Position numbers and translations under genes: made by a program
Shown here: positions 1 through 64,000 of the stretch, one piece after another
Layout: each line of letters opens with the position of its first letter
Position numbering within the stretch: position 1 is the stretch's first letter
The notes under the pieces: model-generated
What the model saw: only the letters and a program-made list of their open reading frames with translations
What the model was told of the DNA's origin: nothing
The model's database searches: none
Source of the DNA: Naegleria gruberi
Taxonomy: Eukaryota
Strand: one strand, 5' to 3'
DNA length: 64,000 nt
Assembly (NCBI GenBank): GCA_000004985.1
Contig: GG738874.1

Positions 1-2298
1 ATTTCTAATGACGTCTGCAATAACAAAATCAAACTCCTTGATAAAATCTGGATTTTGGAATAGTTGAACAGTCCATTCTTCTTTTGTTTTTTGAATCCAC
101 TTGGAAAAAATCTGTTTTGAACCATTAGAAACATTCACACAAAGAGGAGCTCCTTCAGTTATATAGGTTTCGAACAATTCACAACACAGTATCTCCCTCA
201 CTCTCCCCAAATCTTCCTCCCTGACATATTCTCTCAGAATTGGTGTCTTTTCCTCGTCATTATGCTTACATTCGTATAAAGAAGAATACACCTTCTCAAC
301 ATCTCCAATAAATGCAACATTCTCAATAGAAAACTCGTGCTTTGAAAATTGTCTCAACAATTCAAATCCATTTTCATCAATATACACCTGAGTAAACTCC
401 TTCCCAAACAACTCAAAGATTGGTGAATCCATTCGTATATTACATCTCATTCGAATATTTGTTCCAGCATGAAACTCTTCCTTCTTTTGCCTTTTCAACT
501 TGAAACTCTCTCGCAAAGTCATTACTGTTACAAATCCTCCACCAACACCAAAGATTTCCAAAAGCAAAGCCACGCACTCAATTGGTAAATTAAAAAATGG
601 AGAAATGAAAAAGAAAGGTGAAGCCCTTTCGTCTATCAAATGTTCAATTCTACCAGTTTCTATTTGAGCAAAACCTCTCAGTATCATCATTATAATATAC
701 AGAAAAGCAAACACAATTTGAATAACCATCTCAAATCGAAAGTATAACGGATCATTTTTAAAAAAGTATTGAATTAGTCCATTCTTTCGAATAAGCATTT
801 TTCTATTGAAATACATGTCAATAAGGAGAGTGATTAAGGCAAACACTGTAGCGAATACTATTGAAATAACGGCTAACACCTGGGCTACTGTAATAAAAAC
901 AGATAGATCTGCAACAAGTAAAAGTGGTGATAAAACTCCCAAAGCTGCGAGAGTTGTCAACAATATTGAAATCTTGACGAAGATTCTAAGTTTTGTCGAC
1001 TTGGACCACTTCAGGGATGTTTTGGTGTGATCATTATTTGTGGAAGTAATTGTGGAAGTAATTGTGGAAGGACTCGAGGTAGGAGAAACTATTTGAGAAT
1101 TCGAAAGGTTTCCAATATTTGAAAAATCCATCCTACTAAACCTTTTCACCAAACTCTCATCCATCACTTTCATATCTCGTATCGATTTTCTCTTAATATC
1201 ACAATAGACCTGATTATACACCTTCCTATTATAGAAAAAAAAAAGTGAATTTGTAAAAAATAGAATGAAAACTATTCCACAAATTATCACTGGTAGATAC
1301 AGAATCATTAAAATGTAATCTTCCCCGTTGAAATAATAATATAAATCCTTTGCTTCATTTGCTAAAATGTGAGCTACTACTATATATGGAACGAAATGTC
1401 TGGTTGACCTAGGTTTCGTATTATGGAAATAAATAGTGAATGGAGTAAGAATGAGTAAAACTAAAAATAAGATAATTGTCGTTAATAGACCTAGAATGTA
1501 ATGTGCAACAGTTGCAACTTTTTGTAAAGTCAATCTATTGTCAATTAGTTTATCAGATAAACTAAATTCTGACGAAACTTGAACGAATTCAGGTCCTTCT
1601 TGGTAAGACGAATCTAATGGAAACTTCATTTGCTTTCTATATTTGCCAACGAATGCATTAACTCTCAATTTGGAAGAATCCAAATCAACAAATTTACAAC
1701 CTGATTCCTTTTCCAAATTAGTTACTCCAAATAAATTGTTCAAATTGATTTGGAAATATAATTCAGTTCCATACAATCTTCGTGTACAATTATCTGCCCG
1801 ATAAACAAATTCGTCTTGTTTCGTATTTGATTCATAACTTGGATTCACTATTGAACCATTCACAAAATAGGTTGAATTAACAATAAATTCTTGATCCCTT
1901 AATAGAATTGACTCGCCACTAATATTCATCCTTGCATTCATCTCGAAACTATTCAACGAATCCAAATATTGATAAGCAATCATCCATCTATTCGAAATAT
2001 ACCATGTTCCATTAAATTGAAAATCCAGAGAAACTCCAAACATTGTCTTGTGTAATATATTTGCTGTAACAGCAATCAGTACCATTTGAATGTAATGAGT
2101 CGTTTCATTTTCCTTGGAATGAGACGAAACTAATCTCCATCGCCCAAAAACATTAGGTTTCATTGGAAAGTCATGATATTCAGCTAAATTTTCGTGACCT
2201 CCCCTGACTGACTGGCATTGGAGCCACAACATCATAAGCGTTAATATTCCAATTCGTGAAAGAGTGCCAAGTTTCCAATGCTTGTTTGTTATCTCCAT
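1..2298 (-). CDS. Multi-pass transmembrane protein with C-terminal RGS (regulator of G-protein signalling) domain. N-glycosylated ectodomain, then TM bundle, then RGS. Partial: C-terminus runs off the window start.
   Basis: Hand translation of the minus strand from ATG (revcomp of 2296-2298) runs stop-free to position 1. It is not in the ORF track because it is truncated by the window edge. Signal-like N-term MEITNKHWKLGTLSRIGILTLMMLWLQ. Many NxS/T sites. Several hydrophobic 20-aa segments. C-terminal FSKHEFSIENVAFIGDVEKVYSSLYECK... matches the RGS-box EFSEENxxFW signature. Confidence 0.6.
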   Translation of the reverse strand, partial: MEITNKHWKLGTLSRIGILTLMMLWLQCQSVRGGHENLAEYHDFPMKPNVFGRWRLVSSHSKENETTHYIQMVLIAVTANILHKTMFGVSLDFQFNGTWYISNRWMIAYQYLDSLNSFEMNARMNISGESILLRDQEFIVNSTYFVNGSIVNPSYESNTKQDEFVYRADNCTRRLYGTELYFQINLNNLFGVTNLEKESGCKFVDLDSSKLRVNAFVGKYRKQMKFPLDSSYQEGPEFVQVSSEFSLSDKLIDNRLTLQKVATVAHYILGLLTTIILFLVLLILTPFTIYFHNTKPRSTRHFVPYIVVAHILANEAKDLYYYFNGEDYILMILYLPVIICGIVFILFFTNSLFFFYNRKVYNQVYCDIKRKSIRDMKVMDESLVKRFSRMDFSNIGNLSNSQIVSPTSSPSTITSTITSTNNDHTKTSLKWSKSTKLRIFVKISILLTTLAALGVLSPLLLVADLSVFITVAQVLAVISIVFATVFALITLLIDMYFNRKMLIRKNGLIQYFFKNDPLYFRFEMVIQIVFAFLYIIMMILRGFAQIETGRIEHLIDERASPFFFISPFFNLPIECVALLLEIFGVGGGFVTVMTLRESFKLKRQKKEEFHAGTNIRMRCNIRMDSPIFELFGKEFTQVYIDENGFELLRQFSKHEFSIENVAFIGDVEKVYSSLYECKHNDEEKTPILREYVREEDLGRVREILCCELFETYITEGAPLCVNVSNGSKQIFSKWIQKTKEEWTVQLFQNPDFIKEFDFVIADVIRN
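1038..1072. repeat. Short tandem repeat, 12-nt unit ttgtggaagtaa x ~2.8, inside coding sequence (encodes TSTITSTIT on minus strand)
   Basis: Direct reading of 1031-1075. Confidence 0.6.
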
Positions 2299-2591: not shown

Positions 2592-4469
2592 TTAATCGGT
2601 CACAACTGAACGAGGAGGGAGAGAAGGCCCATTAAATTCATAAAATACATCGGTCAATGTGATATTTTCAGCATTAATTTCTGCCATTCTAATGACCTTT
2701 GTATTAGTCTTGTTACAGACCATTTGGATTGGAATGTGAATCTTCATGGATGATTTCTTAGAGGCCTCAAAGTCCTTTGTACTGAATTCATATCCTGTAT
2801 CAGGAACACCTGCAACCAGAGGATACAGATATGGACAGAACATGTGTAAATCTGGCTTATCAGATGGAATGTTATGCTCAGAAGGAACATAGACTGTTGC
2901 CCTTTCATATTTGTGTTTCTTTTCCTCAATTCTCTTACTTAGCATGGTTGGCCTAGTGAGCACTGAAATTTGTTTGGAATTGTTGTGTCTTTGAGAAGTT
3001 ACACTCTTCTTCTTATTTGGTATTGGAGAAGCAGATGTGGAATTGTCATAATTTCTGATATGAGATGCTTCTGAAGCATTTTGCTTTGGATTTTGGTAGG
3101 AGAAGGAAGAGAAGTGTCTCTTAAGCTTTGAAGGATAAAAGACATCATAGCTCATCATGCCATCTGGGTTGAAATCTTCTTCGAGTGATTCACCCATTTC
3201 CATGGTATTTTCAACATAGATTGGCTCAGGGAGGTTTTGATTTACAGAGTGAGAGGAGGTAGCATGTGTTGGGAGAGACTTAGACCCCACACTTTCAACG
3301 TTGCGAGGGGTTGTACGAGAAACATAATTAGGAGCTTGTTCATAGTTTGACCCATTGATTGACAATAAACCTCTAGCCAAACGTCTAGCAGTTTTTTGTT
3401 CAGATTGTGGTGATTGTGAAGAGGAGGTAAAGGATGTCTTGGATGATGAATTATAGTTGAATGACCCAGTGAGGAAGGTGAAAATTGTAAAAACAAATAA
3501 AATTCCCAAAATTATTACTGCAGATCTCATGATAGTATTTCTCTTTCTATTATCAGGATTAGAATTATCTGTTGTAGACATGGTATAGCTAGAATAGACA
3601 ACAGCTAATTGAGATTGAAGATAGTGATTTTCATGAACTAGTTTTTCGTTTTGTTCTTTGAGTGATTTGATGGTAACTTGTGCCTCGTCGAGCTTTTTTT
3701 GAAGACCATGATTTTCATCTCTCAATGTTTCCAATTCCTTCTTTTTTCTGTCTCTGGAGACCTTGGCTGTATATCTATTTCTGAGTTTCTTCTTTTCTTC
3801 CTTTTGTTGTTCTGTCAAATCTTCTGCATTTTCCAAGGCGAGTAATCTTTTCATGTCTGCATCAATTTCCTCAGCATCTCTTTTTCTTGCATTATTAGCA
3901 TTCGATTTTTTTCTTGCCTTTTCCTCATCACTTTCAGAACCAGATGAAGTTTGCTTGGAAGTTTTACTGTCTGATGATACCTTCTTCTTCTTTCTAGCAG
4001 GTGCCTTCTTCTTGGTTGCTGTAGTGCCACTTGATTGTCCACTTGTTGATGATTGATCTGTTGTTGTTGTTTGTCCACCAGTAGGAGACAATGAATTACT
4101 ACTCACGGACCCTGTCATGAATTGTGTAGGTGAAGTATTGAATGCACCAAAGAATGCATTCGAGAACATGGATGGATGCATAGCATTCTGTAACACAGCT
4201 GGATAGTTATTGTTAAACATTACAGGAATAATAGGACCTGTTGTGGTTGGAAAGGTAACTGAAGGATTTTGATTATCTGCTGACATCGGATTATAAAAAT
4301 CAAATGTGCCCATGTCTGATGGCATGCCATAGAAAGCGTTTACATCTACCACTGTTGGCTGTTGTTGTTGTTGAATATCGGATGTTGTTTGTTGTTCATC
4401 CTCACCAAGAAGTGATGTAAAATCAAAATCTTCATCCCCTCCCGAGAGAAGTGTTTCATAATTGTCCAT
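2592..4469 (-). CDS. Membrane-tethered bZIP transcription factor (ATF6/CREB3/OASIS-like). N-terminal Q/S/T-rich activation region, basic region + leucine zipper, single TM helix, luminal S/N-rich tail.
   Basis: ORF 2592..4481. The first in-frame ATG is at 4469 (MDNYETLL); the track start at 4481 is a TTG. Basic motif KKLRNRYTAKVSRDRKKKELE fits bZIP N-x7-R. Heptad leucines LETLRDENHGLQKKLDEAQVTIKSLKEQNEKLVHENHYLQSQL. Then hydrophobic AVIILGILFVFTIFTFLTG. RRLARGLL just C-terminal of the TM resembles an S1P RxxL site. Confidence 0.7.
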   Translation of the reverse strand: MDNYETLLSGGDEDFDFTSLLGEDEQQTTSDIQQQQQPTVVDVNAFYGMPSDMGTFDFYNPMSADNQNPSVTFPTTTGPIIPVMFNNNYPAVLQNAMHPSMFSNAFFGAFNTSPTQFMTGSVSSNSLSPTGGQTTTTDQSSTSGQSSGTTATKKKAPARKKKKVSSDSKTSKQTSSGSESDEEKARKKSNANNARKRDAEEIDADMKRLLALENAEDLTEQQKEEKKKLRNRYTAKVSRDRKKKELETLRDENHGLQKKLDEAQVTIKSLKEQNEKLVHENHYLQSQLAVVYSSYTMSTTDNSNPDNRKRNTIMRSAVIILGILFVFTIFTFLTGSFNYNSSSKTSFTSSSQSPQSEQKTARRLARGLLSINGSNYEQAPNYVSRTTPRNVESVGSKSLPTHATSSHSVNQNLPEPIYVENTMEMGESLEEDFNPDGMMSYDVFYPSKLKRHFSSFSYQNPKQNASEASHIRNYDNSTSASPIPNKKKSVTSQRHNNSKQISVLTRPTMLSKRIEEKKHKYERATVYVPSEHNIPSDKPDLHMFCPYLYPLVAGVPDTGYEFSTKDFEASKKSSMKIHIPIQMVCNKTNTKVIRMAEINAENITLTDVFYEFNGPSLPPRSVVTD

Positions 4470-4990
4470 TGTAGATCTCAAATAATAATTATTCTTCTAC
4501 AATTCTTTTCTTCACTAAATAGTGTTGCCGACTGGTACCACCACGCACAAATTATTGTAGTAGTAAAAATTTCAGAGAGAAGTCTCTGGGTGATGAAGAA
4601 AATTGGCCGTTAAGTAAATTTTTTTAAAGAAGAAATTGCTGAGGGTCATTTTTGATGAAGGCTTTGATACAACATGTTCCAGAGCGAAAATGGCTCACTA
4701 TTAGGTATGGTTGAACACGTGTTTTCTTCTTGCCAAGTCAATACACTATTTTTATAAATTGATATGGAAGAGGCTTGGAAGGAGGATTTTCAAGGAAGAG
4801 AGAATATACATTCTTTGAACGTTGCCAAACTATTGAAAAATACGTGTTTTTTTTGAAGGCTATTTGCCTTTTTGTAATATTGATTGTATTTAATATTTAA
4901 ATGTACAGAAATATATTGAAAGATTACAACATTGCCATAGATGGTTCTATTTAAAAAAATAACCAAATGGAAAATTGAGATTATTAAAAA

Positions 4991-27144: not shown

Positions 27145-30100
27145 TTATTTCTTTTCAGATTCATCTATTACAGAATTTTCATAATAATTCTTGAGTTCTT
27201 GCTGTTCTTGTTCAACAAGCTTGTTAGAACTCGAAGGAGTATGATAGGAAACTTCTAGATCACATCCAAGTGGATTTTCATGATGTTTCTCCTTCAATAA
27301 ATAGGTTTGAGAAAGTCCTTTTCCTTTCACTTCAACCATTCTCTCTTCAAACTCAAATAAATCATAAACTCTTCCATAGGTAGATCTGGAAATTTGAATT
27401 CTTCCTGGAAGTGAAGTTGATTCCATTCGAGAGGCAGTATTGATTGTATCTCCCCACAAATCGTAGGCAAACTTTTTAAATCCAATCACTCCACCAACTG
27501 CATCTCCTGTGTGAAGACCAATTCTCAAATTAATGGCTGTGTTATTACTCTGATTGATATTTTTCAAGAAGGACATGATTTCAATGGCAAATCTCAACAT
27601 TCTTTCTGGATGATCCGATGACTTGCTTGAATGTAAACCACTCACACAGAAATAAGCATCTCCAATGGTCTTAATCTTGTCAACCAAGTGAACTTCTGTC
27701 AACTTGTCAAATCCTTGAACAATTAAATTCAATATTTGTACCAACTCACTTGGTTGTAATTTTGAACTCCAAGCTGTAAAGCCAACCATGTCACTGAAAA
27801 ATACAGTGATATCATTCACTTTTTCATATAAATTCTCTTCTCCATTTTTCAATCTTGAAGCCATTGACATTGGCAATATATTCAATAATAAATCTTCACT
27901 CTTCTTCTTTTCCTCTGCAATCAAAATACTCTGTTTCTTTTCAGGTGTAATATCTCGAACAAAAACAATCAAAATTTGCTTCTTTTCATGAATTGAAATT
28001 GAAACTGAAACTTTTGAGGAGAATGAAGTCTTGTTCTTTCTCAGAGCCATTGCTTCAAATGCATCATGACTTTCACCTGTTGAAATTAATTTGGTTATTC
28101 TTTGAGAATACTCATCTGTGAATAGAGATTGAATGGAGAGTCCCAAAACTTGTGACCTCGAATGTCCAAACATTTCCTCAGCTGAATTGTTGAAAATGGT
28201 GATATTTCCATCCTTATCACAAATAATGGCAGAATCAACACCTCCATTCAAAATAGTCTTGACCATTTCAATCTTGTCTTCCTTTTCATCGGAACTCATC
28301 TCAAATTTGGACATTAACTTTGTTATCTTTGAGGATGAAGGAATAGAATTACTCATGACATAATCTTTCAAAATCAAATTATTGTCAATCAATTCCAAAT
28401 TTACATAATTCAACATCATTCTCAAACATGCTCTTTCCTTCCAATATCTTTTCAATGAAGAGTAACAAATCAATGCGTATAAAAGTGTGGCAACAAAGCA
28501 CAACACAATCATGCTAGCTGTTAGGCCAATACTTGAAATCTTCTCGTGTTCTACAAGGGTGGATATAAGAAGTTGTAAATTGGTAGTTATTGTTTGTGTT
28601 ATGTAAAAAATGTCTGTAAAATAAGCAGTCACCATTTGTGTCATACTCTTTTGTTGCCCAAAGAATACTTCGTTGTAATCTAAAGACTTGGTAATATAAT
28701 CCGTCAGTGCAATGGTCAAACTATGACAAGGATCTTCCATAGGAATGGTATCGTTACAAAAGTCTCCTAATATATAGTCTACATCTTGATATTTTCCAAC
28801 AACGGCTGATTGATAGGATGTTGATTCATCACCCACAATCACATAATTCCAGTAAGTTCTCAAGTCAAGTAAATCTTGCTTATTTTCCTCATTGAATATC
28901 AAAGGCAAAGTAGTGAGGTACTTTACTCTTTGAAAGTACCAAAGTAACCTAAAGTTGGTTCTACTTGTTCTTAGGGAAACTGCATTGATTGAACCAACAA
29001 CATTCATAGATTGGGAACTATTTTTGGTATTTGATTGTAGCTCTACAACAACCAAGACGGAACATAGGCAAACAATTATGACGAGTACAAAACTTCCCAT
29101 CATTACTAAATTTCTCATTTTAAAAAAGGAATTAGACGAGCTTATTGAGTCATCAATTTTCTTGTCAAAATTGTGATAAACCTTTCCGACTTCGTCTTTT
29201 GCAATCCTTCTGAATACCTCCCTTAGCTCAGTGACTATTCGTCTGGCATGCACAAAGATAATGGAAAAGTAAATCATTACAATTAGTAGATACGTGGTTA
29301 GAACAGAAATCACAGTAATCCATAATTGCTCAAAATTAGCTTCCAAAACATCAATACTTTCTTCAACAAATTTTGAACACAGACCATTAAAAGCTAGAGA
29401 CATGGATATTCTATTGTAAAATAGAAATAGGTATGGATAATTATCATCTAAATGGGATGTTAACACCTCAATATTATTAAATTGCTTCAACAACGTTTTA
29501 CCGTGTGTTAATATTGAAGACAAGTAGAATTGAATAGATGTATTGGTAGACTTATATCCTGGAATATCGCTTGTTCCGTCCAGTGATTCATTAGCAATAG
29601 GAAGTTTAAGATCATACTGATTTTTCAAATATTCCTTAGCAACTTCAGGCATTAACAAATTATTATCGCCTGCATAGATGACAGTACCAACTGTATCTAA
29701 CAATGTCTTTGTGTATATAATTGTAGAGTTGAGTAATTTTTCAGTATTGTTTCCTCTTGAATAGAACTCGGTTTGAAGAGCTCCTATTTGTGCCAATAAC
29801 TTGTAAGGCACAGATGTCATTAAGCATACTTTCTCTTGCATGGACATTCTTTGGTTAATACTCTGAGAAAATGAAAAGGCTATTGGAGCAACAATACATA
29901 TAGTAGACAATGAGACAACACAAAAAATGAAAAACAATACAGAATACACAACCGTTGACATTGGTGTGTTAATGGCTGTGCGCAAGATATGATCTTTTCT
30001 ATCTTCATTATCCTCGGCAGTTACACTTACAGAATCCCAATTTTCCAAGTTGGCTCTTTGTGAGTCTATACTGAATCTAGAGGTAGTTCCTTTGTGAAAT

Positions 30101-32037
30101 GATTCGTGGGCTTTGGATATTTGGAGAGTTGATCTATTCTTCTTATCATCATCATTGTCCTGTGCTTCTTCAAATAAATCTCTTGCCAAATTGATTTCCC
30201 ATTTGTATTTTTCCAAATATGAGGCATAGGATCTGAGAAGTGTCTTGTTGGATCGGTTGGCAATCAATAAATTGTCATAGATGGTGTCACATTCATTGTA
30301 AATGGAACAGCTTGTTCTATTGATGTGCTCCAATTTATCAATGGATGGTTTGTCATTCAGTAATTCTTTGAAGAATGATTTGTGACATCTAGATAAGGAT
30401 TTGACTTTCTTTTCAACCACTGCAAGTTTTCTCAAAACTTCAAGATTATTTCCATGGAATGCATGATATTCAATCTCTTCATTTCTCAACATGATGTTGA
30501 ACAATTGAGCTAGTGATGGTGAATTTCTTTGAGCTTTTTGTAAAAGAGCCAAACCAATACTGTATGATTGAGAATCATCATATTCCTCAATTCCACCAAA
30601 TGAAACAAATAATGCACTCACAATCATCAAATCAACATTTTCAATTGATTTCACAAATGTATTCACACTGTGCTTGGCCAAATCAAAATCACTTCCTTCT
30701 TCTGTTTTGAGCTCTGATTTGCAATTCATTGAAAATCGAATGAAGAGTGCCAAATTGTCTTGTCTCTTTTTGGAATCATCCAATGTTAATAAAATATTTG
30801 AACTATCTGCCTTGTTGGAAATTAAATTTCTGATTGATTTCAATTTACGTGAAATGAAAAAGTGAGCACCAATAAAACCAAGAATGAATGAAAGAATGGC
30901 AAGTACACAAGTAACAACAGTCATAATTCCACCAATCACTTGTTGGTCCAATGAAGTTGAAATGAACTGCAAAATTAATGGTGAAATTGGAGTGAATGCT
31001 TTCAATGAAATGAAGGCAATATATAAACAATTCTCCCATTTCCTGAAGAATGGCAATGTTTTCAACATGATTACCAATAATAGTAAATTCATGACAATTT
31101 TCAAAATTGAAGCAATGAATGAATATTGAGATGTGCAAAGAATGGTGGCAACTAAACTCAATTGATTTACCAAATTGAAGAGTATGAATGTTGAAGTTGA
31201 ATACATGGAGAATAAAATCTTTCTATTCAATTCAGCACTTGTTTCAACTGTCAAATAACTTGCAAGCATTGTCAGGACAATATTCAACAGAATACCTATG
31301 CATGCAATGGCCGTAAATATGATTTGTAGCACTGAAGAGAAGTCTTCATTTGGAAAGTAATAGAGTGATCCAATTGAAGAAGTACTTGGAGTAATTAAAA
31401 TACAATGAACTGAGAGCATGAATAAGGAAAAGGTTCTCTGAAATATCAATGAATTCAAAACAAATGATTTGAACTTTTCAAAGAATTTTCCTCCCTTTCT
31501 TGATGCCCATTTACAATAATAAATGGCCAATCCTGTCATGATTTGTAAAACAACAAACAACACAGATAAGGCAACAATAAGATAATAAGGATAGAATTCA
31601 GAGGCCAAATTGAGTGGAAAATACAAAGCTCTCCAAATCCAACCTGGAATCACTCCCCACATCTTGTTAGAAATGCCACTTGTCAATGTTGTTGAGTTAT
31701 CATCCACCAAAGGTGTTGTAATGGAAGAAACAATGATTGAATTATAAATCAAATAGGCATGATAGAATATCATCCAAAAGAACATGTAAGTATTCTCTTT
31801 CCCAATCAATGACTCTTTGGATCTTAGTGTGGTTACAAATGAGAACAAACTAATTCCTGCAGTATTCACTATGCTTTTCCCTGACAAGGAGGAAGCATAC
31901 GAACCAGATGTGGCAGAAGTCCCTCCACCAAACTGAGAATTACTATCACCACCATCATTAGTGGTTCTATTGGGGTGAATAGAGAATTGAGGTTGTGCTA
32001 CTGTCGAACTTGTAACTGGATGTACTCTTGACGCCAT
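27145..32037 (-). CDS. Transmembrane class III adenylyl/guanylyl cyclase (1630 aa): two multi-TM blocks, PAS domain, C-terminal cyclase catalytic domain
   Basis: Single ORF with ATG at 32037. About 12 hydrophobic helices in residues 60-400 and again near 700-760 and 880-1010. PAS-like MFGHSRSQVLGLSIQSLFTDEYSQRITKLI...ILIVFVRDITPEKKQ. Catalytic ITVFFSDMVGFTAWSS...VDKIKTIGDAYFCVSGLH...INLRIGLHTGDAVGGVIG...YDLWGDTINTASRMES carries the metal-binding D, transition-state N/R and GDxY motifs of class III cyclases. Confidence 0.9.
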   Translation of the reverse strand: MASRVHPVTSSTVAQPQFSIHPNRTTNDGGDSNSQFGGGTSATSGSYASSLSGKSIVNTAGISLFSFVTTLRSKESLIGKENTYMFFWMIFYHAYLIYNSIIVSSITTPLVDDNSTTLTSGISNKMWGVIPGWIWRALYFPLNLASEFYPYYLIVALSVLFVVLQIMTGLAIYYCKWASRKGGKFFEKFKSFVLNSLIFQRTFSLFMLSVHCILITPSTSSIGSLYYFPNEDFSSVLQIIFTAIACIGILLNIVLTMLASYLTVETSAELNRKILFSMYSTSTFILFNLVNQLSLVATILCTSQYSFIASILKIVMNLLLLVIMLKTLPFFRKWENCLYIAFISLKAFTPISPLILQFISTSLDQQVIGGIMTVVTCVLAILSFILGFIGAHFFISRKLKSIRNLISNKADSSNILLTLDDSKKRQDNLALFIRFSMNCKSELKTEEGSDFDLAKHSVNTFVKSIENVDLMIVSALFVSFGGIEEYDDSQSYSIGLALLQKAQRNSPSLAQLFNIMLRNEEIEYHAFHGNNLEVLRKLAVVEKKVKSLSRCHKSFFKELLNDKPSIDKLEHINRTSCSIYNECDTIYDNLLIANRSNKTLLRSYASYLEKYKWEINLARDLFEEAQDNDDDKKNRSTLQISKAHESFHKGTTSRFSIDSQRANLENWDSVSVTAEDNEDRKDHILRTAINTPMSTVVYSVLFFIFCVVSLSTICIVAPIAFSFSQSINQRMSMQEKVCLMTSVPYKLLAQIGALQTEFYSRGNNTEKLLNSTIIYTKTLLDTVGTVIYAGDNNLLMPEVAKEYLKNQYDLKLPIANESLDGTSDIPGYKSTNTSIQFYLSSILTHGKTLLKQFNNIEVLTSHLDDNYPYLFLFYNRISMSLAFNGLCSKFVEESIDVLEANFEQLWITVISVLTTYLLIVMIYFSIIFVHARRIVTELREVFRRIAKDEVGKVYHNFDKKIDDSISSSNSFFKMRNLVMMGSFVLVIIVCLCSVLVVVELQSNTKNSSQSMNVVGSINAVSLRTSRTNFRLLWYFQRVKYLTTLPLIFNEENKQDLLDLRTYWNYVIVGDESTSYQSAVVGKYQDVDYILGDFCNDTIPMEDPCHSLTIALTDYITKSLDYNEVFFGQQKSMTQMVTAYFTDIFYITQTITTNLQLLISTLVEHEKISSIGLTASMIVLCFVATLLYALICYSSLKRYWKERACLRMMLNYVNLELIDNNLILKDYVMSNSIPSSSKITKLMSKFEMSSDEKEDKIEMVKTILNGGVDSAIICDKDGNITIFNNSAEEMFGHSRSQVLGLSIQSLFTDEYSQRITKLISTGESHDAFEAMALRKNKTSFSSKVSVSISIHEKKQILIVFVRDITPEKKQSILIAEEKKKSEDLLLNILPMSMASRLKNGEENLYEKVNDITVFFSDMVGFTAWSSKLQPSELVQILNLIVQGFDKLTEVHLVDKIKTIGDAYFCVSGLHSSKSSDHPERMLRFAIEIMSFLKNINQSNNTAINLRIGLHTGDAVGGVIGFKKFAYDLWGDTINTASRMESTSLPGRIQISRSTYGRVYDLFEFEERMVEVKGKGLSQTYLLKEKHHENPLGCDLEVSYHTPSSSNKLVEQEQQELKNYYENSVIDESEKK

Positions 32038-62544: not shown

Positions 62545-64000
62545 ATGACCAACAACACTCAGACTTCGCCACCACCTGAGGCTGGTTCTCCAGAATCTAA
62601 TAGACCTTCATCGCCAATGAATTCTTCCACCACTACTTCTTCATATTTAAATGACAATAATTCATCACCACCTTTGGAAGGAGCAACTAATCAAACTAAG
62701 AACACAACGACTGCATCTTCGCCTCCTATTCATATCTCAACAACAGATACATCCTATTGGAAACAAAACAAATGTTTCGTCTAATGTTTCCATTAAGAAA
62801 GTAGTAACCATTGCATCACCTTCTTCAGTAAACAAACCACCAGCTCAATCACAAGCTGGTATTGTCAATCAGAGCGAAAGTGGTAGATCAGGAGGTTCTT
62901 TCAGTCACAGTAAAATCACCGTACGAACATGTTGTGGTGTGGTTGAGTTGACTTCAATGAAATTAGCTTGTTTACTTGGTATGATGGTTACAGTAATTGG
63001 TTTATTAGTTTTGGCAGCTGTTGCCATTGCTGCCTTTGTTACTGCTAGCTCAAAAGCAACCGACATTTTGATTGCTGTTGGTAAAGCTACAACTATATTC
63101 GAAAGTTCAAATTCAATGGTTCTGAAATATACCTATACTGGATATTCATATGATGGTCAGAATATTGTCGTTCAGGAACAGTATAAGAATTCATCAACAA
63201 CTATGAAAATACTCCTTCAATCAATTTTTAAGAATTTGGACGATTCTACCATTCAAACCATGTTCAATTCGACTGTTATTGAATCTTCCAATTCATTGGA
63301 TTCACAGAATTCTCAAATTTTATTAATGATTGGTTACAATCAACAGAGTGATGCCATTACAAGAATTAATTCAGATACCTATTCCACTATTTTGTCAACT
63401 TTCCAAGATGGTTTGGATAAGTTGGTGACATTTGTGCAACAATCTGAAAAGAACAAAGACACGAGTGTGTTGGCAATTACTTTGGTTCAATTGATTGTCA
63501 TTGCTATTTCATTATTTGTCATTTTGCCAATCATTGTGTTTGTCTTTACTTATGCCATCAATCGTGACTCTTTGTATTTGGAGAAGATTCGTCGTGCCAA
63601 TGCCATCATGTTGATGGACACTATGGAGGATGATGGATTGAGAACATTATTTAAGATACATTGTGAAAAGGAAAAGTCAACTGAAAACTTTTTACTTTTG
63701 GAAAAGATTCAATATTATAGATCATTGTGTGAACGTTCATTGGATTTACAAATGAGATTATTTGGTGATGCCAATATGTTGAGTGATGTTTCGAGTGATA
63801 TTTCAGCAGAATCTGCTCATTCTACAAAGAAGAGGAGGGAATCTCCACTCGAAAAGGAATACACAGAAATTGAAGCTAAAAAGTATGAAGTTGCTTTTGA
63901 GATATTTACTGAATTTTTGGAAGTTACTGGTGATATGGCTGTCAATATTTCTCATGTTCTAACTGATTCTGTTAAGGATAAGCTTGATAAGTATAACGAC
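62545..64000 (+). CDS. Transmembrane RGS-domain protein. S/T/P/N-rich N-terminus, 2 or more TM helices and C-terminal RGS box. Partial: runs off the window end. Apparent +1 frameshift in an A-run near 62765-62775 between the N-terminal ORF (62545..62784) and the main frame.
   Basis: ATG at 62545 (MTNNTQTSPPPEAG...). Main frame open from 62651 to 64000. TM helices LACLLGMMVTVIGLLVLAAVAIAAFVTA and LAITLVQLIVIAISLFVILPIIVFVFTYAI. RGS: DDGLRTLFKIHCEKEKSTENFLLLEKIQYYRSL...YEVAFEIFTEFLEV (EFSEENxxFW-type). Removing one A from aaacaaaacaaa gives ...SYWKQTNVSSNVSIKKVVTIASPSS. Confidence 0.55.

What the first reader, a model, noticed from the sequence alone, without database searches (positions are those of the whole stretch)
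1..2298. Two multi-TM proteins with C-terminal RGS boxes, one at each window edge (receptor-GAP hybrids)
The minus-strand gene at 1..2298 and the plus-strand gene at 62545..64000 both combine a transmembrane helical domain with a cytosolic RGS box. GPCR-RGS chimeras are best known from plants (AtRGS1) and a few protists. In an organism with a hugely expanded cyclase repertoire they would tie heterotrimeric G-protein turnover to membrane sensing. Neither ORF is in the supplied track because both are truncated by the window edges.
Basis: partly seen in the sequence, partly recalled or inferred. Interest (0 to 1): 0.5.

Follow-up and report, generated by a model that had tools for sequence, protein, structure and literature searches.

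The report
Naegleria membrane receptor-like RGS proteins
Both window edges carry real genes of the amoeba Naegleria gruberi that join a membrane-spanning, receptor-like part to a cytosolic RGS (G-protein off-switch) domain, a design already described and tested biochemically in Naegleria, so the finding is correct but ordinary.

Summary
The window is Naegleria gruberi. Gene A (minus strand, 2298..1) is one unbroken 766-codon ORF. It encodes a signal peptide, a ~230-aa beta-rich ectodomain, seven hydrophobic helices and a divergent RGS box, and the window start cuts off about 50 aa. Gene B (62545/62651..64000) is an annotated N. gruberi protein. It has a low-complexity N-terminus, two TM helices flanking a four-helix-bundle ectodomain, and an RGS box joined to TM2 by a continuous helix.

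The class is known. N. fowleri has 28 7TM-RGS proteins and 79 other RGS proteins, and three of these RGS boxes are proven GAPs (Bosch et al. 2022). Three things are modestly new:
- Gene A appears to be missing from public protein sets.
- Gene B is a 2TM, chemoreceptor-like variant rather than a GPCR-like one.
- The reference carries a 1-bp frameshift in B's N-terminal region.

No G-alpha gene lies in the window.

The parts
1..2298 (-). Gene A coding sequence: 766 codons, 3' end cut by the window start, about 816 aa in full. Encodes a 7TM-RGS receptor-like protein.
   Evidence: Uninterrupted ORF. C-terminus recovered from L001/P0001. Full-length Naegleria homologs P0019-P0023 and P0026.
2200..2298 (-). 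Gene A probable signal peptide (residues 1-33: basic n-region, hydrophobic IGILTLMMLWL, then QCQS/VRGG).
   Evidence: Read directly from the sequence. AF2 places a short helix at residues 18-26. No signal-peptide predictor was run.
1516..2199 (-). Gene A ectodomain (residues ~34-261). It is beta-rich, carries six N-x-S/T sequons, and is conserved across Naegleria (HDFxxxPNLYGTWRL motif). No Pfam family matches.
   Evidence: Fold hits are generic beta-sandwiches from a low-confidence model.
514..1515 (-). Gene A seven-helix membrane domain (TM1 262-290, TM2 300-322, TM3 328-357, TM4 439-461, TM5 467-496, TM6 523-545, TM7 564-595). It includes an 81-residue S/T- and K/R-rich cytosolic loop (window 985-1227).
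   Evidence: Single-sequence and family-averaged hydropathy. K/R counts are 2/15/6/9 on the predicted cytosolic loops and C-terminal stretch, against 0/0/2 on the outside loops. AF2 helices agree. TM2 is weakly hydrophobic in gene A itself.
1..426 (-). Gene A RGS box (residues ~625-766, last helix cut off by the window start). It has an insertion of 20 to about 40 residues after helix 4. Contact residues: S657-x-E659-N660 at window 319-330, and N722 at window 133-135.
62545..62784 (+). Gene B probable true start and low-complexity cytosolic N-terminus. It is out of frame with the rest of the gene because of one extra base near 62736 in this sequence.
   Evidence: ENA strain contig L002 has a continuous 541-aa ORF from the equivalent ATG. 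Paralogs have similar S/T/N/P-rich N-termini.
62651..64000 (+). Gene B main reading frame (the annotated model P0002 starts here with MTIIHHH). The 3' end is cut by the window end, and 57 aa are missing.
   Evidence: 100% identity to P0002. Coordinates.
62957..63040 (+). Gene B TM1, preceded by the invariant TCCGVVE motif.
   Evidence: Hydropathy, AF2 helix 134-167, alignment invariants.
63041..63481 (+). Gene B ectodomain, a four-helix bundle with two N-x-S/T sequons.
   Evidence: AF2 pLDDT about 90. Best Foldseek hits are bacterial chemoreceptor 4HB ligand-binding domains, with TM-score up to 0.84. There is no sequence-level signal.
63482..63556 (+). Gene B TM2, predicted to continue as one helix towards the RGS box.
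   Evidence: Hydropathy peak 3.32. AF2 helix 277-359.
63614..64000 (+). Gene B RGS box (cut by the window end), with an acidic/S-rich insertion. Contact residues: S-T-E-N at 63677-63688 and the Asn of VNIS at 63944-63946.
   Evidence: Pfam RGS in 13 of 13 family members, best E 1.2e-8. P0003 scores 24.0 bits over model positions 5-116 of 117. The window part scores 20.2 bits.

Best explanation
Both genes encode plasma-membrane, receptor-like GTPase-activating proteins for heterotrimeric G-alpha subunits. They belong to the large Naegleria repertoire of transmembrane RGS proteins.

Gene A is a 7TM-RGS protein. It has a signal peptide, a glycosylated beta-rich ectodomain, seven helices with the N-terminus outside and the C-terminus inside, and an RGS box about 30 residues after TM7.

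Gene B is a bitopic hairpin receptor. It has a cytosolic N-terminus, TM1, a four-helix-bundle ectodomain and TM2. TM2 continues as a helix into an RGS box, and the protein ends in a conserved polybasic tail.

Proposed mechanism. The RGS box sits at the inner membrane face and binds G-alpha-GTP through the conserved Ser/Glu/Asn, Asn and Asp/Arg contact residues (RGS4 positions 85/87/88, 128, 163/167). This accelerates GTP hydrolysis and keeps G-alpha subunits in the GDP state. Some Naegleria G-alpha subunits load GTP on their own. An extracellular cue sensed by the ectodomain or helix bundle would change the access or orientation of the RGS box, or remove the protein from the membrane as happens for AtRGS1. 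G-alpha-GTP would then accumulate.

Shown here: gene structure, topology indicators, RGS homology and fold, and conservation of the contact residues. Inferred by analogy: GAP activity, ligand regulation and plasma-membrane location.
For: Organism and gene identity.

RGS in gene A:
- Pfam PF00615 is the only hit.
- The A-family RGS profile matches the RGS regions of P0024 and P0025 at 57 and 47 bits. Those two proteins score 51 and 35 bits on Pfam RGS.
- The joint profile hits 28 PDB sequences, all RGS proteins, the best being RGS5 at 1.1e-7.

RGS in gene B: 13 of 13 family members match Pfam RGS.

Contact residues: S-x-E-N, V-N-x-S and D-T-x-x-R are invariant or nearly so in both families.

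Topology: seven hydrophobic segments, with K/R-rich predicted cytosolic loops and K/R-poor outside loops. N-glycosylation sequons cluster in the predicted ectodomains. AF2 secondary structure agrees.

Precedent:
- N. fowleri encodes 28 7TM-RGS proteins, 79 other RGS proteins and 13 G-alpha subunits. The RGS boxes of 7TM RGS2, RGS3 and RGS4 accelerate GTP hydrolysis on Nf G-alpha2/3/5/7, including self-activating ones (PMC9283941).
- RGS fused to at least one TM helix is found in most eukaryotic lineages, and 7TM-RGS in many bikonts (PMC3971589).
- N. gruberi is reported to have 44 G-alpha subunits (PMC8584482).
Against: - Gene A's RGS box is below Pfam's curated cut-off, and four of its six family members give no Pfam hit at E<=0.01.
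- The AF2 model of A is poor (mean pLDDT 46). The 7TM bundle is therefore inferred from hydropathy, not from a confident 3D model.
- TM2 of gene A is only weakly hydrophobic.
- The RGS part of B's model has low confidence.
- No ligand, no expression data and no partner G-alpha were examined. No G-alpha gene is nearby.
- The reference sequence of B carries a frameshift near its start.
Confidence: 0.8

Rival explanations
1. The membrane parts are only anchors. The proteins would be constitutive, membrane-localised GAPs (or GAPs regulated from inside the cell), with ectodomains that bind no signal.
For: No known ligand-binding family matches either ectodomain. The resemblance of B's ectodomain to chemoreceptor sensors is structural only, and generic helical bundles (talin, vinculin) also match. 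Bosch et al. state that receptor function of Naegleria 7TM-RGS proteins remains to be determined.
Against: Both ectodomains are conserved across species at about 30-60% identity and carry conserved motifs and sequons. Seven helices plus a 230-aa ectodomain is far more than an anchor needs. B's TM2 runs continuously into the RGS box, as in signalling receptors.
Confidence: 0.2
2. The RGS-like domains are non-catalytic scaffolds, like the RH domains of GRKs, axin or sorting nexins. They would bind G-alpha or other partners without accelerating GTP hydrolysis.
Against: The equivalents of RGS4 Ser85/Glu87/Asn88, Asn128 and Asp163/Arg167 are conserved in both families. This mapping to RGS4 numbering rests on my own knowledge of the RGS4-Gi-alpha1 structure. 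The best fold and sequence matches are R4-type RGS proteins. Divergent N. fowleri 7TM-RGS boxes were active GAPs.
Confidence: 0.12
3. Gene B is a pseudogene in this strain because a 1-bp insertion disconnects its start codon from the body of the gene.
For: There is an extra C near 62736 relative to a 98.8%-identical strain, where the ORF is continuous.
Against: The 450 codons after the shift are intact and 99% identical to the other strain. The shift lies in a low-complexity, poorly conserved N-terminal region. In-frame Met codons downstream (MTIIHHH, or MKLACLL just before TM1) could serve as starts. A sequencing or assembly error is at least as likely.
Confidence: 0.08

Closest known systems
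Naegleria fowleri 7TM RGS proteins (Bosch, Jeck and Siderovski 2022, J Biol Chem, PMC9283941)
   Same: Same genus and same architecture as gene A: an extracellular N-terminal region, seven TM helices and a C-terminal RGS box. Gene A has N. fowleri homologs (FDP41_008323 and FDP41_005195, named 'RGS domain-containing protein'). RGS boxes of three members are proven GAPs for Naegleria G-alpha subunits.
   Different: The characterised members (7TM RGS1-4) carry EGF repeats, lectin domains or GPS motifs. Gene A's ectodomain has none of these and matches no Pfam family. Whether gene A's orthologs are among the 28 proteins counted was not checked. Gene B has 2 TM helices and would fall among the '79 additional RGS proteins'.
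Arabidopsis AtRGS1 (plant 7TM-RGS)
   Same: Seven TM helices followed by a cytosolic RGS box. [quoted passage not shown]
   Different: No sequence similarity of the membrane domain was detected or tested here. AtRGS1 has a short N-terminus, whereas gene A has a ~230-aa ectodomain and a long S/T-rich loop between TM3 and TM4. AtRGS1 regulation by phosphorylation-dependent endocytosis is an analogy only.
Bacterial methyl-accepting chemoreceptors and sensor kinases with four-helix-bundle (4HB_MCP/TarH) periplasmic domains
   Same: Gene B has the same layout: TM1, an antiparallel four-helix ectodomain, then TM2 continuing as a helix into the cytoplasmic output domain. The best structural matches are the MCP2201, Vc1313, Tsr and Tar ligand-binding domains.
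   Different: No sequence-level relationship was found. The Foldseek E-values are weak (0.03-1) and other helical bundles also match. The output is an RGS box rather than a HAMP/kinase-control module. This is a resemblance, not membership.
Canonical R4-type RGS proteins (RGS4, RGS5, RGS1, RGS10, RGS18)
   Different: The canonical proteins are small and soluble or lipid-anchored. The Naegleria boxes carry insertions (20 to about 40 aa in the A family, about 45 aa in B) and are covalently tied to membrane receptors.

Membership tests
RGS domain (Pfam PF00615) | HMM score at or above the curated gathering score (23.9 bits), gene A | tested here: not met
   19.7 bits for the window part and 21.3 bits with the complete C-terminus. 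Paralog P0020 scores 22.8 bits. Four relatives give no hit at E<=0.01.
RGS domain (Pfam PF00615) | HMM score at or above the curated gathering score, gene B | tested here: met
   The window part alone scores 20.2 bits. Full-length P0003 (99% identical) scores 24.0 bits over model positions 5-116 of 117. All 13 family members match, best E 1.2e-8. PF00615 is precomputed for the reference protein P0002.
RGS domain (Pfam PF00615) | Profile-level homology to solved RGS domains, gene A | tested here: met
   With the A-family profile alone, the top 10 PDB hits are all RGS but weak (E 0.04-0.45). The same profile matches P0024 and P0025, which have strong Pfam RGS hits, at 57 and 47 bits. The joint profile gives 28 of 28 PDB hits as RGS, best 1.1e-7.
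RGS domain (Pfam PF00615) | All-helical RGS fold | tested here: met
RGS domain (Pfam PF00615) | Conserved G-alpha contact residues (RGS4 Ser85/Glu87/Asn88, Asn128, Asp163/Arg167) | tested here: met
   A has FSIEN, VNVS and DTFGR. B has KSTEN, VNIS and DTHHR. These are invariant or nearly invariant in both family alignments and aligned to the RGS5/RGS18/RGS4 motifs. The residue roles come from my own knowledge of the RGS4-Gi-alpha1 complex.
RGS domain (Pfam PF00615) | GTPase-accelerating activity on a G-alpha subunit | not testable with these tools
   This needs biochemistry. The precedent is in N. fowleri (PMC9283941).
7TM-RGS receptor-like GAPs (AtRGS1, Nf 7TM RGS) | Seven transmembrane helices with N-terminus outside and C-terminus inside, gene A | tested here: met
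   Seven hydrophobic segments appear in single-sequence and family-averaged hydropathy. The positive-inside pattern holds (K/R 2/15/6/9 inside vs 0/0/2 outside). Sequons lie in the N-terminal region. AF2 helices agree. No dedicated TM predictor was available, and TM2 is weak.
7TM-RGS receptor-like GAPs (AtRGS1, Nf 7TM RGS) | Seven transmembrane helices, gene B | tested here: not met
   Only two hydrophobic helices are present, flanking a ~145-aa ectodomain.
7TM-RGS receptor-like GAPs (AtRGS1, Nf 7TM RGS) | RGS box directly C-terminal to the last TM helix | tested here: met
   In A the RGS box starts about 30 residues after TM7. In B it starts about 20-25 residues after TM2.
7TM-RGS receptor-like GAPs (AtRGS1, Nf 7TM RGS) | Homologs of the same architecture in other Naegleria species | tested here: met
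   P0021 (N. lovaniensis), and P0026 and P0023 (N. fowleri), align over the ectodomain, the TM region and the RGS box.
Known GPCR families (Pfam 7tm_1/2/3, Dicty_CAR, Frizzled and others) | HMM match of the membrane domain | tested here: not met
Bacterial 4HB_MCP/TarH sensor domains (for gene B's ectodomain) | Four-helix-bundle fold between two TM helices | tested here: met
   AF2 pLDDT is about 90. The best Foldseek hits are chemoreceptor ligand-binding domains, with target-normalised TM-score 0.6-0.84. The E-values are weak and the fold is common.
Bacterial 4HB_MCP/TarH sensor domains (for gene B's ectodomain) | Sequence-profile match | tested here: not met
   The ectodomain profile finds no chemoreceptor in the PDB. 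Pfam TarH appears for only 1 of 12 members, at E 4.1.

The most novel reading that the evidence does not exclude
The gene B family (present in Naegleria and Willaertia) could be an undescribed class of eukaryotic receptor-GAP. In this reading a chemoreceptor-like four-helix-bundle ectodomain, probably dimeric, passes a ligand signal through TM2 as a continuous helix directly to an RGS box. That would be a bacterial-style two-helix transmembrane signalling mechanism wired to heterotrimeric G-protein inactivation. Separately, gene A would be a bona fide N. gruberi 7TM-RGS gene missing from the reference annotation.
Probability: 0.2. Interest if true: 0.5.

Novelty: new member of a known kind. 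Interest (0 to 1): 0.25.

Why it matters
Transmembrane RGS proteins are the proposed 'receptor' side of G-protein signalling in organisms whose G-alpha subunits load GTP on their own. Naegleria has one of the largest such repertoires, and its pathogenic relative N. fowleri is studied for drug targets in this pathway. These two loci add little conceptually, because the architecture, its expansion in Naegleria and the GAP activity of some members are already published.

The practical gains are threefold:
- An apparently unannotated 7TM-RGS gene, with an ectodomain of unknown fold that is conserved in the genus.
- A corrected start and frameshift note for an annotated gene.
- A pointer to a 2TM, four-helix-bundle subfamily whose layout suggests a simple, testable transmembrane signalling mechanism.

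Tried and rejected
- Single-sequence search of gene A's RGS region against the PDB gave only noise-level hits.
- The word-indexed homolog search found only a near-identical metagenome fragment for gene A, both with the single sequence and with the family alignment. Low-complexity words probably swamped the candidate list, and the third search was wasted. The exhaustive HMMER search was needed to find the family.
- Direct profile-profile comparison of A's and B's RGS boxes gave only a 27-column match around the VN(x)S loop at probability 5%. The two boxes are not close relatives of each other.
- The whole-family B profile found nothing in the PDB at E<=0.01.
- Exact-sequence look-ups meant to extend the reference contig failed for P0002 and for the neighbouring bZIP gene. 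The ends were taken from a 98-99% identical metagenome strain instead.
- The AF2 model of gene A was poor (pLDDT 46), so nothing can be said about its ectodomain fold or helix packing.
- The afdb50 fold library was unavailable.
- The Anantharaman et al. 2011 paper could not be read.
- A GPS/GAIN motif before TM1 of gene A was considered and rejected. The Cys-rich pattern and the HL/T site are not present in the sequence.
- Sequence homology of B's ectodomain to bacterial chemoreceptor sensors was tested and not found.
- Co-encoded G-alpha was looked for by Pfam scans of all ORFs of at least 200 aa and by motif scans of all six frames. None was found.
Full report
**Source and context**

The window is AT-rich eukaryotic DNA (GC 0.31-0.37). 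It carries genes for actin, a TCP-1 chaperonin, kinesin, an exocyst subunit, a PAS-adenylate/guanylate cyclase and others. The right-edge gene is 100% identical to an NCBI 'predicted protein [Naegleria gruberi]' on a 401,612-bp contig. The window is therefore Naegleria gruberi nuclear DNA.

**Observation, gene A (minus strand, 2298..1)**

Translation of the minus strand gives one uninterrupted frame of 766 codons. It starts at the first ATG after an in-frame stop (2298) and runs to base 1 in phase. A metagenome contig from a closely related strain (L001, 97.7% DNA identity over 1750 bp) continues the frame for 50 more residues to a stop. The full protein is therefore about 816 aa, and the window removes only the last helix of the C-terminal domain and a short tail.

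The protein reads as follows:
- a signal-peptide-like N-terminus (residues 1-33);
- a ~230-aa region with six N-x-S/T sequons that AF2 predicts as mostly beta strands;
- a hydrophobic region (262-595);
- a C-terminal domain with the motifs EFSIEN, VNVS and (from L001) DTFGRL.

**Observation, gene B (plus strand, 62545..64000)**

The ATG at 62545 opens an S/T/N/P-rich frame that stops after 79 codons. The body of the gene continues in another frame from 62651 to the window end. A 98.8%-identical strain (L002) lacks one C near 62736 and has a continuous 541-aa ORF from the equivalent ATG. The NCBI model P0002 (507 aa) avoids the shift by starting at an internal 'MTIIHHH'.

All paralogs have a similar low-complexity N-terminus followed by the conserved KKVTIASP...SESG...TCCGVVE block. 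So 62545 is probably the true start, and the extra base is either a sequence error or a strain-specific lesion. The window end removes 57 residues.

**Are the C-terminal domains RGS boxes?**

Gene B: yes, by the standard test. All 13 family members match Pfam PF00615 (best E 1.2e-8). The full-length near-identical protein scores 24.0 bits against a cut-off of 23.9, covering model positions 5-116 of 117 with a roughly 45-residue acidic/serine-rich insertion.

Gene A: PF00615 is the only Pfam hit but stays below the cut-off, at 19.7 bits for the window part and 21.3 bits with the complete C-terminus. I therefore tested it in other ways.
- An exhaustive HMMER search of 1.84 billion representatives found five full-length relatives, all from Naegleria. 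It also found two shorter metagenome proteins, P0024 and P0025, matched over the C-terminal domain.
- P0024 and P0025 are strong Pfam RGS hits (51 and 35 bits).
- A profile built only from the A-family C-terminal domain matches their RGS regions at 57 and 47 bits.
- The A-family profile alone, searched against PDB sequences, returns RGS proteins as its ten best hits, but weakly (E 0.04-0.45).
- A joint profile adds P0024, P0025 and a third Naegleria RGS box found next to gene B. It returns 28 PDB sequences, every one an RGS protein, led by RGS5 at 1.1e-7.

Gene A's domain is thus a divergent RGS box with an insertion after helix 4. The insertion is about 20 residues in gene A and about 40 in its longest relatives.

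In both families the residues that contact G-alpha in the RGS4-Gi-alpha1 complex are conserved: Ser85/Glu87/Asn88, Asn128 and Asp163/Arg167. The assignment of those roles rests on my own knowledge of that structure. This conservation argues for active GAPs rather than degenerate RGS-homology scaffolds.

**Are the hydrophobic segments transmembrane, and how many are there?**

No dedicated TM predictor was available. I used Kyte-Doolittle hydropathy, family-averaged hydropathy, the positive-inside rule and AF2 secondary structure.

Gene A has strong hydrophobic peaks at 262-290, 328-357, 523-545 and 564-595, and a 62-residue block (437-498) long enough for two helices. A weaker segment at 300-322 scores 0.82 in gene A but 1.41 when averaged over the family. 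With seven helices:
- loops 1, 3, 5 and the post-TM7 stretch carry 2, 15, 6 and 9 Lys/Arg;
- loops 2, 4 and 6 carry 0, 0 and 2;
- the sequons and the signal peptide lie on the predicted outside, and the RGS box on the inside.

AF2 also draws seven long helices in this region. The 81-residue loop between TM3 and TM4 is S/T-rich and variable in length across the family.

Gene B has two very hydrophobic helices (peak scores 2.84 and 3.32). The ~145 residues between them are modelled with pLDDT about 90 as an antiparallel four-helix bundle. TM2 continues as a single helix (277-359) to the start of the RGS box.

**What the ectodomains resemble**

Gene A's ectodomain has no Pfam match and only generic beta-sandwich fold hits from a low-confidence model. 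It is conserved in N. gruberi, N. lovaniensis and N. fowleri, with the motif HDFxxxPNLYGTWRL.

Gene B's ectodomain gives its best Foldseek matches to bacterial chemoreceptor four-helix-bundle ligand-binding domains (MCP2201, Vc1313, Tsr, Tar, PcaY). Target-normalised TM-scores reach 0.84 but E-values are weak (0.03-1), and talin and vinculin bundles also match. Profile searches of the ectodomain against PDB sequences and Pfam find no chemoreceptor signal. I treat this as a resemblance in layout (TM1, four-helix bundle, TM2, output domain), not as membership of that family.

**Surroundings**

- No other RGS-like ORF and no G-alpha P-loop or switch-2 motif occurs in any of the six frames of the window. 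Pfam scans of all ORFs of at least 200 aa show no G-protein subunit. The WD40 protein at 20357-21805 matches Prp19/WDR-type models far better than G-beta.
- Just beyond the right edge, convergent with gene B, the related strain encodes a further TM-RGS protein (L002:1818-2729).
- Beyond the left edge lies a convergent NHL-repeat protein (L001:1905-4382).

With on the order of a hundred RGS genes per Naegleria genome, two or three within 66 kb is not remarkable.

**Comparison with what is known**

Bosch, Jeck and Siderovski (2022; PMC9283941) report the following for N. fowleri:
- It encodes 28 seven-transmembrane proteins with C-terminal RGS boxes, 79 further RGS proteins, 13 G-alpha subunits and about 80 cyclases.
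- Isolated RGS boxes of 7TM RGS2, RGS3 and RGS4 accelerate GTP hydrolysis on Nf G-alpha2/3/5/7 through a canonical interface.
- Two of these G-alpha subunits are self-activating, as in plants, where AtRGS1 is the paradigm.

De Mendoza et al. (2014; PMC3971589) found RGS fused to at least one TM helix in most eukaryotic lineages and 7TM-RGS in many bikonts. N. gruberi is credited with 44 G-alpha subunits (PMC8584482).

Gene A's N. fowleri and N. lovaniensis homologs are already labelled 'RGS domain-containing protein' in UniRef. Gene B and its paralogs are annotated N. gruberi proteins, several with the same label.

**Mechanism**

Shown here: gene structure, topology indicators, RGS homology and fold, and conserved contact residues.

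Inferred by analogy with AtRGS1 and the N. fowleri proteins:
- The RGS box, held at the inner face of the plasma membrane, binds G-alpha-GTP and speeds hydrolysis.
- An extracellular cue changes the availability of the box, so G-alpha-GTP rises.
- For gene B, the continuous TM2-to-RGS helix and the bundle ectodomain suggest a piston or rotation type of signal, as in bacterial two-helix receptors, probably in a dimer.
- The invariant Cys-Cys before TM1 and the polybasic C-terminal tail would help hold both ends at the membrane.

Rivals are an anchor-only role for the membrane parts, non-catalytic RGS-homology scaffolds, and pseudogenisation of B. They are listed with their tests in the rival explanations.

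**Novelty and verdict**

The kind is known, and gene B is an annotated protein. Gene A appears to be absent from public protein collections:
- two indexed searches and the exhaustive search returned only a metagenome fragment as its cluster;
- its paralog NAEGRDRAFT_64840 is present.

It is therefore best described as a new member of a known kind. The 2TM four-helix-bundle RGS subfamily is a variant that I did not find singled out in the two papers I could read on this. I could not read Anantharaman et al. 2011, which may cover it. Interest is low to moderate.

Noticed in passing
window 62725-62745 (extra C near 62736): A single-base difference from a 98.8%-identical strain (L002) puts the ATG at 62545 out of frame with the rest of gene B. 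The NCBI model P0002 works around it by starting at an internal MTIIHHH in the other frame. This is either a reference sequence error or a strain-specific frameshift.
   Followed up: yes
window ~1255 (T-run) vs L001:~495: The metagenome strain's contig lacks one T of a T-run inside gene A. Its gene caller therefore split the gene into 192-aa and 440-aa ORFs. The window's copy is intact.
   Followed up: yes
L002:1818-2729 (minus strand), just beyond the right window edge: A third membrane-associated RGS gene lies convergent with gene B. It has hydrophobic helices followed by ...GELSVENYFFY...RVNISN...IQETFTRFQNTREY, that is, an RGS box with a long insertion.
   Followed up: partly
L001:1905-4382 (minus strand in locus), just beyond the left window edge: An 825-aa NHL-repeat / teneurin-NHL-like beta-propeller protein lies convergent with gene A (Pfam TEN_NHL 2.5e-45, NHL 4.6e-40).
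   Followed up: partly
window 1-2298: Gene A was not found among NCBI/UniRef N. gruberi proteins in two indexed searches or in the exhaustive search. Only a metagenome fragment represents it, although its paralog NAEGRDRAFT_64840 is present. It may be unannotated in the reference.
   Followed up: partly
window 2592-4481 (minus strand): A 629-aa ORF has a sub-threshold bZIP_1 match (24.3 bits, cut-off 27.6) at residues 225-285. About 40 residues later comes a strongly hydrophobic segment (SAVIILGILFVFTIFTFLTG) and then a long C-terminal region. It looks like a membrane-tethered bZIP factor of the ATF6/OASIS type.
   Followed up: no
window 27145-32037 (minus strand): A 1630-aa protein carries TmcB-type TPR repeats, a PAS domain and an adenylate/guanylate cyclase catalytic domain (Pfam 5.7e-53).
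   Followed up: no
window 62930-62960 and P0003 residues 520-541: The gene B family has an invariant T-C-C-G-V-V-E motif immediately before TM1, a possible palmitoylation site. It also has an almost invariant C-terminal tail FKQSLAFQREMKIDKIKVDKLKKKK..DF, which is polybasic and could bind membrane.
   Followed up: no
gene A residues 507-523 (window ~730-780); P0024, P0025: A motif Y-F-F-x-x-D-P-x-Y-(Y/F)-R-x-E lies between TM5 and TM6. It is shared by gene A's family and by distant metagenome TM-RGS proteins, which suggests a common membrane-domain family wider than gene A's subfamily.
   Followed up: no
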